Positions 6,297 through 63,685 of a DNA stretch of 64,000 nucleotides are shown piece by piece. The position numbers and the translations under genes are program-made. The stretch is from Octopus sinensis (lineage: Eukaryota), in the NCBI RefSeq assembly GCF_006345805.1, contig NC_043017.1, forward strand, positions 21,390,001 through 21,454,000. The letters are read 5' to 3'. The notes beneath the pieces were generated by a model. The model was not told the origin of the DNA. It was given only the letters and a program-made list of their open reading frames with translations, and searched no databases. Every line of letters begins with the position of its first letter. Position 1 is the first letter of the stretch.

Positions 6297-6802
6297 CAGT
6301 GCTACTCAAAGGGTGGTCTGCAGACTGGCGCCAGTCCGTCAACCATCAGGCACCAGTACACAGTGAGTTTCCAGAAAAAAAGAAACGATAGCATAATTTC
6401 AGTAATTTCACCTTATGCACAGCAGTTGACTGGTGGAGCTTGGTACTCACCAACTTTTATTATATTCATTATAAGGCCAAGCTACTCCAGACTGATGAAG
6501 GGAATTTACCAGAAACTAGTGTCTGGCTGTTGGCTTTGTTGGGTGGAGGTGCTTATCTCCCCTGTTTGAAAACTTAAGGGCATAGAATGCTTGTGTTGCA
6601 TAGCCAACTAGAAACGGTGTTTGGGGGGCTAAATAGCAGTAGCATTCTTCCGTTTCCCGTGACTGCTACAGTATGTTGGCAACAAGCCACTGCTTCGTTA
6701 TATATATTGTTTCTGGTATAAATTAATACTGCTAAGAAATATTAATGGTCCCTGGTGGTGGGAACTGCTGGTATGCCACATCAGATAGTTTGAGAAACAC
6801 TG
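6297..6802. mobile_element. hAT (Charlie-like) non-autonomous element
   Basis: TIRs CAGTGCTACTCAAA / TTTGAGAAACACTG. 8-bp TSD AACTAGAC (6289-6296) / AACTAGAA (6803-6810). Confidence 0.8.
6473..6538 (+). ncRNA. Type I hammerhead ribozyme motif, cleavage triplet mutated (GUG)
   Basis: Stem I CCAGA/TCTGG extended by AAGGCCAA/TTGGCTTT. Core CTGATGA at 6492-6498, stem II GG/CC, GAAA, palindromic stem III ACTAGT. Confidence 0.7.
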
Positions 6803-7384
6803 AACTAGAAAACAGGATCTGATTCCGTAACAATGCAATGAGGCAGTCTAGTGCAACAGTGAGAAATATCTTAGAACCCCCTTTAGGAATAACATTTCTG
6901 GAATTGAAACAGCACTTGAGTTACAGAATGTTATTGGAAGTTTAGTAAATACATCATGATGATGTATGTTGCATGTTGCCAAGTGTTCAGAGAATAATGA
7001 TTTAGTGACAACATACTATGAAATCCATCAACTCAAAATTTATGTAAATTTATGGATTCTATCAGTTATAAACAATTTATGATTTATCATAAAAATATGA
7101 AACATCAGAAAGAAAATAACAAAAAAAAACAAAAACAAAAACAAAAAAAACAAAGAATGGTATAAATGGAAAACATTTCAACTTAAGTGTTTGGAACTGT
7201 TTACCATATATGTGAGGAAGAATTTCAATTTGATTTTATGATTCTTTCAATAATTTCTGCATTTGATATTGAAATTTATGACAAAATTGCTTGATATTTT
7301 TTTTTCAGGTGGGAGAGTGTATGTTTTTTTTTTCTTCAAGGATTGTTGATTTGATTGCATGCATAACAATATAACAATATGTTA

Positions 7385-20610: not shown

Positions 20611-21572
20611 ACATCTATACTTTTCCATACTTGCCCTAGTCAGATGAGTCTTTACCAGGGCAGAATTTTCTGTAGCTGGATGCCTTTCTTGTGACAAACC
20701 CATGTTTCTTTCCAAACAAAGTAACAACTCCCCACAGATGGGACAGATTTTTTATGGAGATGTAGCCAAGGAAATAATACCATTTGTATGAACGGGTGAG
20801 ATTTGAACTTACTTTGTAAAGACTCAGAAGAAATACCACAGTGTGATTTTATAGGTGCTTTGAACAACTCCGCTACTTAATGCTCATGAGGAGGAGGGGG
20901 AGGGGGAGGAGGAGATGACAACGGCAGTATTATTATTATCATTATTATTATTATGACATCGTCATCATCGTCATAATAATAATGATAATAATAATGATAA
21001 TAATAATAATAATAATGATGATGATGATAATAATAATACTGGTTGTGGGGAAGAAAGAACAATTTGAAATGCCAAATGACTTGTGAAAGCTACATATACA
21101 TTTAAATGATATTCATGAGTGCTTTATGGATCAGTGAATAACAAATATGTAAGTTGAATTCTAAGTATTAGGATTTGAAATTGTGCTTGAATCTGAAATG
21201 AAGCAGTTTAATAGAAAATGTCAGTTTTTAAATAATGCATTTGTTTGCTCAAGAAATTTTTGAAGATGTCTTCTGCCCGCCTACATCTTTTTAATTATTT
21301 GGTAATATTATGACTTATTTATCAAATCTATAAATTATTTTGTTGAGGAGAAGGTTCGAGGAATTGTTCTGCTGTGTCTTGTATCTTTTACTTGTTTCAG
21401 TCCTTAGATTGTGGTCATGCTGGAGCACTGCCTGGAAGGGTTTCGTCAAACAATTTGACCCCAAGACTTATTCCATTTTTTAAGTCTGCTATGAAGCAGT
21501 AAGCTGGCAGAACTGTTTGCATTTCAAGCAGAATGCTTAGTTAGAAAATTACCATTTTTAAATCTCTAGTCG

Positions 21573-21633
21573 AACAATTATTCTGTGCTGATGAAGGGAA
21601 ATAACCTGGAAATCATGATACACAGATATTGTT
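21573..21633 (+). ncRNA. Type I hammerhead ribozyme motif, copy 1
   Basis: Stem I TCTGTG/CACAGA extended by AACAAT/ATTGTT. CTGATGA at 21588-21594, stem II AGG-GAAATAA-CCT, GAAA, palindromic stem III ATCATGAT. AUA cleavage is predicted after 21620. Confidence 0.8.
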
Positions 21634-21883
21634 TTGAAGGACACAGATCGTGTTGTATAGCCAGCTGGAGACGATGTTTCCAGGGACTAAATTACAGTAA
21701 CATTCATCCTAAACCAGGACTGCCATGTTATGTTGGCAAACAATCTTTACTCCAAAGTACTTTTGATGAATATCTCTCGTTGTGAGATTTAAAAATAGTA
21801 ATTTTCTAATATAAATCAGTGACTAGTTGTCACTTTGAAAAGTATATATTTCCAACGGGAATCGGCAGTGCCGCCTCTAGATG

Positions 21884-21944
21884 AACAATTATTCTGAGCT
21901 GATGAAGGGAAATAACCTGGAAATCATGATACGCAGATATTGTT
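21884..21944 (+). ncRNA. Type I hammerhead ribozyme motif, copy 2
   Basis: Same core (CTGATGA at 21899-21905). Stem I TCTGAG/CGCAGA has one mismatch. Cleavage is predicted after 21931. Confidence 0.75.
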
Positions 21945-22152
21945 TTGAGCTGAATGGTGGGGGATTAAATTCCCCTGTCATATAGATCGTGTCATATAGC
22001 CAGCTGGAGACAATGTCTCCTGGGGCTAAATTACAGCAACATTCGTCCTAAACCAGGACCACCATGTTATGTTGGAAAAAAATCTTTACTCCAGAATGCT
22101 TAGTGGCAAACAACTTCAACTGGCCATTGAAGACATAATAATAATAATAATA

Positions 22153-31664: not shown

Positions 31665-31837
31665 TAGATAGATGTTATATATACATACATACATATATAT
31701 ATGTGTGTGTTTTGCATACATATATATATGTGTGTGTGTGTGTGGTATATATACATATATATATGTTTTATATATATACATATATATGTTTTATCTATAT
31801 ACATATATATATGTTATATATACACACACACACATAC

Positions 31838-32420
31838 ATATCCTAGGGCCATTCGTTACGGTTTATAGGGACTGTCTCTGGTCACGCATGGTCATTCAGA
31901 CAGCCAGTGTCACTGGCTACACTGATGATACAAAATTACCACCTGCAGCAAAGAACTCAGACACTGACACAAGTTTGCAGCAGGACCCAAATGCAATTTA
32001 CAAGTAGGTTGAACAAAACAGCATGCAACTGAATGCCAGAAAATTTTAACCACTGTGCTATCAGCTTGCAAATTTTCCACAGCCTGCCTATACAAGATGA
32101 GAAGATGCTGTAATTTCTGAGATGCAGACAATGAGAGATTAGAGAATCAGTATGAGTTATGATGTCGTCGTGTCCTATAGACAAAGAGAAAACAAGTGGC
32201 AGAATGGATAGTAAGGTCCTTCAAGATAAGAAACCAAGAAGTCGTGTTGACCCTGAGGAAGACCTTTTTTCTCAGCTGCCTGGACTATTGCTCTCAACTA
32301 TGGCCATCACATTGATTCAAAGTAGACCTTTAAACTATCCATTACTACGACACTATAAAGACAGCCACAGCATCTCGTTAGTTATCGAGGCAAGCATCCC
32401 ATAATAAGACTCCGAGTTTC
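31838..32420 (+). mobile_element. Decayed CR1-like LINE RT fragment
   Basis: ILGP...GYTDDTKL...LQQDPNAIYK*VEQNSMQLNARKF corresponds to the RT YADD motif and the downstream LQ.DL....W...N.M..N..K pattern. Confidence 0.75.
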
Positions 32421-33380: not shown

Positions 33381-33414
33381 AGTTTATAAATGATATATAT
33401 ACATATATATTCAA

Positions 33415-33613
33415 AATGTGACCGCGTGTGTACCGTTGGCGATTTTTTTCCTCCGTCTTCCCTTCTTTGAATCTTTTCTTTTCCTATGTTTCTGACGAAG
33501 AGCACCGCTCGAAACGTTAAGCCTACCTTCTTTCCTGAGCATTCAATAATACTATACTTGTTCCACATCCTCGCATTGTGTTTTCTCTTTGTGTTTTCAT
33601 GTCTGGATTAACT
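33415..33613 (+). mobile_element. Short Penelope-like/HHR repeat in (TA)n
   Basis: About 200-bp pyrimidine-rich block centred on a minimal HHR, with TA tracts on both sides. Confidence 0.65.
33488..33522 (+). ncRNA. Minimal type I hammerhead ribozyme motif
   Basis: GTTT-CTGACGA-A-GAGC-ACC-GCTC-GAAA-CGTT-AAGC: intact core, palindromic ACGT stem III. GUU cleavage is predicted after 33518. Confidence 0.8.
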
Positions 33614-33664
33614 ATATATATATAAATATATATATATATGTGTGTGTGTAAATATATATGCATA

Positions 33665-63521: not shown

Positions 63522-63685
63522 CTATGTCAAGTCCAACAGGAAACGGTGTTTCCTAGGGCTAAATAACAGTAGCATTCTTCCCTTTCATGGGACTGTCATA
63601 TTAAGTTGACAATATCCTATCACTTTATCATGCTGATACTGCATAAATCTTTCAGAGAGATTTAGAAACGTATTATTTCCAAATT
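63522..63685 (+). mobile_element. Fragment of the retrozyme-like family lacking the HHR
   Basis: GGAAACGGTGTTTCCTAGGGCTAAATAACAGTAGCATTCTTCC aligns with 6610-6652, 21667-21710 and 22006-22048. Confidence 0.65.

What the first reader, a model, noticed from the sequence alone, without database searches (positions are those of the whole stretch)
21529..22104. Candidate cephalopod retrozyme: TSD-flanked 1.7-mer with two hammerheads 311 nt apart
Seen: a 13-bp TSD (CAGAATGCTTAGT) splits a SINE head. The 550-bp insert is a direct repeat (starts 21564 and 21875), and each copy has a full type I HHR (CUGAUGA, GAAA, palindromic stem III AUCAUGAU, AUA site, long bulged stem I). Predicted cuts after 21620 and 21931 would release a 311-nt monomer, about 340 nt with the segment copy 1 lacks. 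There is no ORF, and the insert ends do not coincide with the cleavage sites. Known: non-LTR retrozymes in other metazoans are tandem repeats of a few hundred nt with type I HHRs that yield circular RNAs, and Penelope-like elements carry similar HHRs. Inference: this is a retrotransposed copy made by reverse transcribing more than once around a circular RNA, probably using a Penelope-like RT. I do not know whether this family has been described.
Basis: partly seen in the sequence, partly recalled or inferred. Interest (0 to 1): 0.82.

Follow-up and report, generated by a model that had tools for sequence, protein, structure and literature searches.

The report
Octopus retrozyme with Penelope insertion marks
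A decayed copy of a very abundant, non-coding octopus repeat carries two predicted self-cutting hammerhead RNAs and ends shaped like Penelope-transposon insertions, so it is likely a retrozyme, a kind already known from corals, mussels and amphibians, though nothing here shows that it cuts or forms RNA circles.

Summary
In detail: a 550-nt insert in a 13-bp target-site duplication splits an octopus repeat and holds two type I hammerhead motifs 311 nt apart. Reads laid on the unit show a very abundant family (roughly thousands of copies) whose ~350-nt non-coding unit also runs head-to-tail at other loci; hammerhead stems covary between variants. The first 25 nt of the insert are an inverted copy of the family's 3' end. 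Family 3' ends pile up at one place (21809/21810) instead of being permuted. Both copies carry different deletions, and hammerhead 2 has a stem I mismatch, so this copy is decayed. Inverted end piece, one-sided tail, partial tandem and TSD are the published anatomy of Penelope-like (PLE) insertions, which supports a PLE enzyme. A circular template is neither shown nor excluded: one RNA run mirrors the DNA profile with no ends at the cut. Verdict: new (cephalopod) member of the known non-LTR retrozyme / non-autonomous PLE class; I found no cephalopod example in print in my searches.

The parts
21529..21541 (+). left copy of the 13-bp target-site duplication
   Evidence: empty site matches an uninterrupted repeat at 42086-42026
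21542..21566 (-). inverted end piece: reverse complement of 21784-21808, starting at the family's main 3' end; last 3 nt shared with the start of copy 1 (microhomology)
   Evidence: (I18); family end table 7
21564..21752 (+). copy 1 (5'-truncated repeat, about 41 nt deleted after 21637 relative to the family)
21573..21633 (+). hammerhead 1, type I; stem I 6+6 bp with a 3-nt bulge, predicted cut after 21620; stem I letters equal the family majority
   Evidence: table 3
21753..21809 (+). 57-nt tail: continues the repeat in other family members and ends at the main family 3' end; absent at the right end of this insertion
   Evidence: tables 2, 5, 7
21810..21874 (+). 65-nt segment upstream of the hammerhead that closes the unit; begins with a TATA-like motif (untested)
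   Evidence: tables 2, 4, 8
21875..22091 (+). copy 2 (about 13 nt deleted near 21979-21983 relative to the family)
   Evidence: table 7, 37
21884..21944 (+). hammerhead 2, predicted cut after 21931; A-G mismatch (21897/21933) at the second pair of stem I, both letters rare in the family
   Evidence: table 3
22092..22104 (+). right copy of the target-site duplication
   Evidence: right junction is covered in DNA run X1 (depth 48.8)
6400..6745 (+). old, about one-unit relative (75% over 91 nt) with a hammerhead at 6476-6534 whose stem I differs by compensatory pairs; position 17 is G (non-cleavable by the NUH rule)
63533..63612 (+). short old fragment of the unit's middle (74-79%)

Best explanation
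The insert is a decayed, about 1.6-unit copy of an abundant ~350-nt non-coding octopus repeat with a predicted type I hammerhead in each unit, and it was likely written into the genome by a Penelope-like reverse transcriptase/endonuclease acting in trans, which makes it a probable non-LTR retrozyme. Shown: TSD, tandem unit, hammerhead motifs, family abundance, fixed 3' end, inverted end piece. Inferred steps: (1) tandem source loci are transcribed through several units; (2) neighbouring hammerheads pair through the palindromic stem III and cut as dimers; (3) monomers are ligated to circles by a host ligase, as in mussel and axolotl retrozymes; (4) the PLE protein nicks both target strands 13 nt apart and primes twice on a template that spans the ribozyme site: once at the tail end (giving the 25-nt inverted piece) and once 57 nt upstream (giving the 528-nt, more-than-unit cDNA); (5) the two cDNAs are joined at a 3-nt microhomology; (6) each copy then decayed by about 5% and took its own deletion. 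For the template of this insertion I slightly favour a circle (about 0.45) over an uncut linear multimer (about 0.4) or a template jump (about 0.15).
For: Family: 5768 contigs laid in DNA run X1 and 4493 in X3; summed depth over the hammerhead in X1 is 3,300-6,600 times that of the unique right flank (the tool warns this is no copy number, so only 'thousands' as a rough order). Closed unit: the joint 22091->21753 stands in 5 X1 and 4 X3 contigs; the tail-to-spacer junction is crossed by 14 X1 and 14 X3 contigs with a 2-nt insertion, and by X1 record 1 (21773-21943, 29 other letters) and X3 record 17. Fixed 3' end: loose ends behind 21809/21810 in 123 X1 and 108 X3 contigs with flank agreement 0.41-0.45, and depth falls about threefold there; the inverted piece starts exactly there. 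Partial tandem + inverted 5' piece + one-sided tail + TSD is the PLE layout (PMC8557442 and PMC3846280, passages); a PLE protein nicks and extends both strands and starts at two internal RNA sites that define the tail (PMC11167929, parts 1-2). Hammerhead kept by selection: positions 21926/21927 read G and C in 51-85% of depth, the pair of changes that keeps the stem III palindrome (linkage inferred from similar frequencies); 21918 C turns a G-U into G-C in stem II; the old copy shows 6 double changes, 4 unchanged and 1 broken pair among 11 stem I positions. The dimer fold is 10.7 kcal/mol better than two monomer folds. Depth does not drop upstream of the cut site (X1 161,000-324,000 upstream, 164,000 downstream), so copies were not made mainly from cut linear monomers.
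Against: No cleavage or circle is shown. Raw RNA run X24 (another species; 1824 of 12,895,792 reads laid, about 6% of the run read, unstranded) has no pile-up of ends anywhere, and its hammerhead-to-middle depth ratio (0.12) equals that of DNA of the same species label (0.10), as read-through would give; 63 of 153 reads at 21902 carry a core change. The cut-to-cut 311-nt circle folds no better than shuffles (z -0.8; the 339-nt unit z -2.2). The active dimer fold lies 6.7 kcal/mol above the minimum and its stem III has ensemble probability 0.06. Rfam hammerhead models do not score the motif. In the Xenopus study 8 of 9 predicted retrozyme dimers did not cleave (10.64898/2026.07.22.740005), and the one PLE studied in vitro did not need its hammerhead. 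No partner PLE was found, and only the best-supported rows of the loose-end table were shown (24 shown, 578 not).
Confidence: 0.72

Rival explanations
1. An internally deleted, non-autonomous PLE (pLTR - tail - short remnant - pLTR) that moves only through uncut linear transcripts; the hammerhead is inherited from the parent pLTR and no circle is part of the cycle.
For: Repeat length (about 230 nt), inverted piece, tail and TSD match the Adineta Pen2a layout (218-bp pLTRs, 31-bp tail, 9-bp TSD). Uncut RNA was the main substrate of the anole PLE. No RNA evidence for processing.
Against: The hammerhead has the canonical build of retrozymes (6-bp stem I plus distal helix, short stem II, 2-bp stem III), not the minimal build of most animal pLTRs, and it covaries within the family and with an old relative of the same unit length. 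The tail is 57 nt against 30-40 nt in print.
Confidence: 0.2
2. Two 5'-truncated ends of an ordinary autonomous PLE joined by a template jump at this one locus, so that the 311-nt 'monomer' is an accident.
For: PLE insertions are often partial tandems of truncated copies. The two copies differ by 9.7% and by different deletions. X1 records 2 and 3 carry unseen sequence upstream of 21810/21815 (table 8).
Against: The same tail-to-spacer junction exists at other loci in two species labels (tables 4, 8). The divergence is compatible with decay after one insertion: 1 of 38 in TSD plus inverted piece against 18 of 186, Fisher p 0.21, and at CpG sites the copies decayed on opposite strands. No RT or GIY-YIG family in 150 of 417 complex frames of the window; a 71-aa frame over copy 1 found no longer protein (weak test).
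Confidence: 0.06
3. A chance hammerhead-like motif in a locally duplicated repeat.
For: No Rfam hammerhead hit; extra A/G at the base of stem II.
Against: Descriptor hits 3 against 0.025 per shuffled window; stem I z -3.45 for copy 1; compensatory changes; TSD and inverted end exclude a simple local duplication.
Confidence: 0.02

Closest known systems
Metazoan non-LTR retrozymes (Cervera and de la Pena 2020, PMC7229834; parts 2-4 of 6 read, supplement not readable)
   Same: Non-coding tandem unit in the 150-450 bp range (mussel 350-390 bp), canonical type I hammerhead with weak palindromic stem III, GC below 50% (37-38%), TSD longer than 4 bp; a mismatch at the base of stem II also occurs in axolotl HHR_Amex2.
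   Different: Cephalopod host; no circle or cleavage shown; predicted circle not strongly self-paired; dispersed, truncated copies with a fixed 3' end and an inverted end piece, which the parts I read do not describe.
Animal retrozymes as non-autonomous PLE derivatives (Li, Clavereau, Pollet 2026, bioRxiv 10.64898/2026.07.22.740005; parts 1-3 of 5 read, supplements closed)
   Same: Meets their working definition (two consecutive units with hammerheads, fold below -5 kcal/mol); PLE origin and mobilisation proposed.
   Different: Their 35 genomes hold no mollusc; their evidence is co-occurrence and pLTR phylogeny, not insertion-site anatomy.
EN+ Penelope-like element insertions (Arkhipova et al. 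2013 PMC3846280 and Craig et al. 2021 PMC8557442, passages; Frangieh et al. 2024 PMC11167929, parts 1-2 of 4)
   Same: Partial tandem, inverted 5' piece, tail at one end only, TSD of about 10 bp, microhomology at the junction, hammerhead in the repeat.
   Different: No ORF between the repeats (122 nt instead of about 3 kb); tail 57 nt; canonical rather than minimal hammerhead.

Membership tests
non-LTR retrozyme | tandem non-coding unit of about 150-450 bp | tested here: met
   about 350 nt; head-to-tail joints here and at other loci
non-LTR retrozyme | type I hammerhead motif in each unit | tested here: met
   covariation; copy 2 has one stem I mismatch; Rfam models do not score it
non-LTR retrozyme | no protein coding, no LTR/PBS/PPT; GC below 50%; TSD longer than 4 bp | tested here: met
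   PBS/PPT judged by eye only
non-LTR retrozyme | many genomic copies | tested here: met
   (thousands of contigs laid in two DNA runs); no exact count
non-LTR retrozyme | self-cleavage of the transcript | not testable with these tools
   needs in vitro assay; no read ends at the cut in X24, which fragmented RNA-seq would seldom show
non-LTR retrozyme | accumulation as monomeric circular RNA | tested here: inconclusive
   X24 profile follows DNA; joints also stand in DNA; library selection not known
non-LTR retrozyme | highly self-paired predicted circle | tested here: inconclusive
   z -0.8 (311 nt) and -2.2 (339 nt) on decayed, deleted copies
autonomous Penelope-like element | RT + GIY-YIG ORF between pLTRs | tested here: not met
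   122 nt between the repeats; no Pfam RT/GIY-YIG in 150 of 417 frames
PLE-type insertion | partial tandem, inverted 5' piece, one-sided tail, TSD | tested here: met
   against passages
PLE-type insertion | an autonomous partner sharing the terminal repeat | not testable with these tools
   no genome held; pattern scans of metagenome and viral contigs empty
PLE minimal hammerhead (Cervera and de la Pena 2014, PMC4209133, parts 1-2 of 4) | long stem II (7-8 bp), short stem I (4-5 bp), little or no stem III | tested here: not met
   stem II 3 bp, stem I 6+6 bp, 8-nt palindrome; it does share the extra base after A9

The most novel reading that the evidence does not exclude
A cephalopod retrozyme whose circular RNA carries a defined Penelope-type priming site, so that a PLE protein primes on both target strands and rolls more than once round the circle; the family would be the first retrozyme in which the insertion scars name the mobilising enzyme class and mark the RNA element it binds, making in-trans mobilisation of a ribozyme circle directly testable.
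Probability: 0.3. Interest if true: 0.65.

Novelty: new member of a known kind. Interest (0 to 1): 0.42.

Why it matters
Which enzyme moves animal retrozymes is still argued from co-occurrence and phylogeny (PMC7229834, PMC7761336 passages, bioRxiv 10.64898/2026.07.22.740005). This family adds insertion-site evidence for a Penelope-like enzyme (fixed 3' end, inverted end piece, one-sided tail, TSD) and extends the class to octopuses, where the repeat papers I searched do not mention ribozymes. If circles exist, octopus tissues would hold an abundant, unannotated small circular RNA. The class, the ribozyme type and the PLE link are already in print, and this copy is decayed, so the interest is moderate.

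Tried and rejected
No whole genome is held, so the genome-wide end survey was replaced by one read lay. Rfam scans at E<=5 and E<=10 gave no hammerhead family. Pfam on 150 of 417 complex frames gave only three weak hits below cut-off. The 71-aa frame over copy 1 found no longer protein. Exact-pattern scans of metagenome contigs and viral contigs were empty. The sigma-70 scan is not meaningful for an animal. The idea that TSD and inverted piece are too well kept for one insertion event was tested and not supported (p 0.21). A 7-of-10 likeness between the TSD start and the unit's continuation might be priming microhomology; only 2 nt fit exactly and one case proves nothing. My automated shuffle test scored only the proximal helix of the old hammerhead (level 1; reached by 2,439 of 200,000 shuffles); its distal pairs were read by hand-set anchors. 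The 3'-to-5' depth gradient is confounded by related subfamilies mapping only to the conserved middle. The locus flank has no depth in X3, X15, X24, but 31 nt of flank is too little to call the site empty there. Earlier-finding look-ups by sequence and place were empty.

Full report
Observation. The 13-mer at 21529-21541 recurs at 22092-22104 and nowhere else in the window. With the insert removed, the flanks match an uninterrupted repeat at 42086-42026 (83.6% over 61 nt) and four weaker copies. The direct repeats start at 21564 and 21875, differ at 18 of 186 aligned positions (13 transitions) and by a 28-nt indel. Each has a hammerhead core with predicted cut after 21620 and 21931. A descriptor written after seeing the motif hit 21588, 21899 and an unrelated motif at 33492, against 5 hits in 200 shuffled windows. 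Rfam did not score either motif. The host is an octopus: a repeat-derived frame hit 5 proteins, 4 named Octopus vulgaris.

The first 25 nt of the insert are the reverse complement of 21784-21808 (25 of 26 with the last TSD base) and overlap copy 1 by 3 nt. Hammerhead 2 has an A-G mismatch at the second pair of stem I, and both motifs have an A after A9 facing a G before G12, over a 3-bp stem II.

The family. No genome was held. A run search found 20 rows of 12 studies holding part of the insert, with five organism labels among rows of share 0.2 or more. I laid four of the 24 listed runs on one unit plus right flank, 21753-22134, at 80% likeness. DNA runs X1 and X3 gave 5768 and 4493 contigs; summed depth over the hammerhead in X1 is 3,300-6,600 times that of the unique flank. 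The tool warns that this is no copy number, so I read it only as thousands. The unit is closed: 22091 continues into 21753 in 5 X1 and 4 X3 contigs and in 193 RNA reads (three rows); the junction at 21809/21810 is crossed by 14 X1, 14 X3 and 2 X15 contigs with a 2-nt insertion and by longer, more divergent records (X1 record 1, X3 record 17). Loose ends before 21984 agree (0.68-0.93) on a segment about 13 nt longer than in copy 2, and the old relative at 6400-6745 has it too: both copies here carry different deletions, and the full unit is about 350 nt. At 21897 and 21933 about 99% of X1 depth has the letters of copy 1, so the mismatch in hammerhead 2 is decay.

Ends. Loose ends behind 21809/21810 occur in 123 X1 and 108 X3 contigs with flank agreement of only 0.41-0.45, and depth falls from 414,000 to 145,000 (X1) and 382,000 to 104,000 (X3). 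So the family has one main 3' end, and the inverted piece of this insertion starts exactly there, while the right end of the insertion lies 57 nt upstream of it. Craig et al. (PMC8557442, passages) describe PLE insertions as partial tandems with an inverted 5'-truncated piece and a 30-40 bp tail often at one end only; Arkhipova et al. (PMC3846280, passages) show this with 218-bp repeats, a 31-bp tail and 8-10 bp TSDs; Frangieh et al. (PMC11167929, parts 1-2) show that a PLE protein nicks and extends both strands and starts at two internal RNA sites that bound the tail. The match is close, except for the longer tail. Only 24 loose-end rows were shown and 578 not, and two X1 records carry unseen sequence upstream of 21810/21815, so a link to a coding PLE is not excluded.

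The ribozyme. Within the family 21926 and 21927 read G and C in 51-85% of depth, the two changes that keep the 8-nt stem III palindrome (linkage inferred, not shown), and 21918 C converts a G-U to G-C in stem II. The old copy has another palindrome (6 nt), the same 3-nt bulge position, and 6 double changes, 4 unchanged and 1 broken pair over 11 stem I positions (distal pairs by hand-set anchors; 1.2% of flank shuffles reach the proximal helix). In the two-copy transcript the dimer fold (-81.8) beats two monomer folds (-71.1) but not the minimum (-88.5), and the dimer stem III has probability 0.06. The build is that of canonical type I motifs in retrozymes, not of minimal pLTR motifs (PMC4209133, parts 1-2). 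Depth does not fall upstream of the cut, so most copies came from templates that span it: circles or uncut multimers.

RNA. Raw run X24 (organism B, unstranded, about 6% read) gave 1824 of 12,895,792 reads. No place shows many ends; the hammerhead-to-middle ratio is 0.12 against 0.10 in DNA run X3 of the same label; the joints also stand in DNA; 63 of 153 reads at 21902 carry a core change. This looks like read-through of dispersed copies and gives no support for a circle; it is a weak test, as the library selection is unknown and poly(A) selection would lose circles (own knowledge). The 311-nt circle folds no better than shuffles. In print, 8 of 9 predicted Xenopus dimers did not cleave.

One event or two. 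TSD plus inverted piece differ at 1 of 38 positions against 18 of 186 between the copies (Fisher p 0.21); at CpG sites the two copies lost opposite strands of the same dinucleotide, and they share the minority variants at 21918 and 21926-7. This fits one insertion followed by about 5% decay per copy but cannot tell a circle from a linear multimer.

Known or new. Non-LTR retrozymes are described from coral, mussel and axolotl (PMC7229834, parts 2-4 read) and argued to be PLE derivatives (bioRxiv 10.64898/2026.07.22.740005, parts 1-3; no mollusc sampled). Searches for retrozyme + octopus, octopus + hammerhead ribozyme, a five-term search and cephalopod + self-cleaving ribozyme + circular RNA listed no description of a cephalopod family (listings only); the main texts of two cephalopod repeat papers have no 'ribozyme' (PMC13282606, PMC8967140; passages), and a retrozyme review has no 'octopus' or 'squid' (PMC7761336). 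The supplement of PMC7229834, which shows further invertebrate examples, and the preprint's supplements could not be seen, Lunse et al. was not held, and repeat libraries could not be searched; any of these may already hold the family. PMC6765202 (passages) was used as background only.

Verdict. A real, decayed insertion of an abundant octopus hammerhead repeat with PLE-type scars: new member of a known kind, interest 0.42.

Noticed in passing
window 6297-6810: The old hammerhead unit sits inside what looks like a hAT-type MITE (inverted ends near 6297 and 6802, near-identical 8-bp flanking repeats; hAT label recalled).
   Followed up: partly
window 33410-33615: A minimal PLE-type hammerhead (core at 33492, 4-nt palindrome) in an unrelated repeat with no second copy in the window: a second Penelope-derived family.
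   Followed up: partly
window 21810-21834: TATA-like motif followed 20 nt later by an initiator-like TCACT, as described for the Adineta Pen2a pLTR; also a small hairpin at 21818-21834. Possible promoter for the next unit, untested.
   Followed up: no
window 22033/21824 (table 5c): One X1 contig joins two parts of the unit through telomere-like repeats.
   Followed up: no
window 22090 (table 7): 319 RNA reads continue with a different tail that resembles the tail of the old copy at about 6690: a second subfamily.
   Followed up: no
window 31672-32004: A frame with a decayed reverse-transcriptase-like motif by eye; no Pfam hit.
   Followed up: partly
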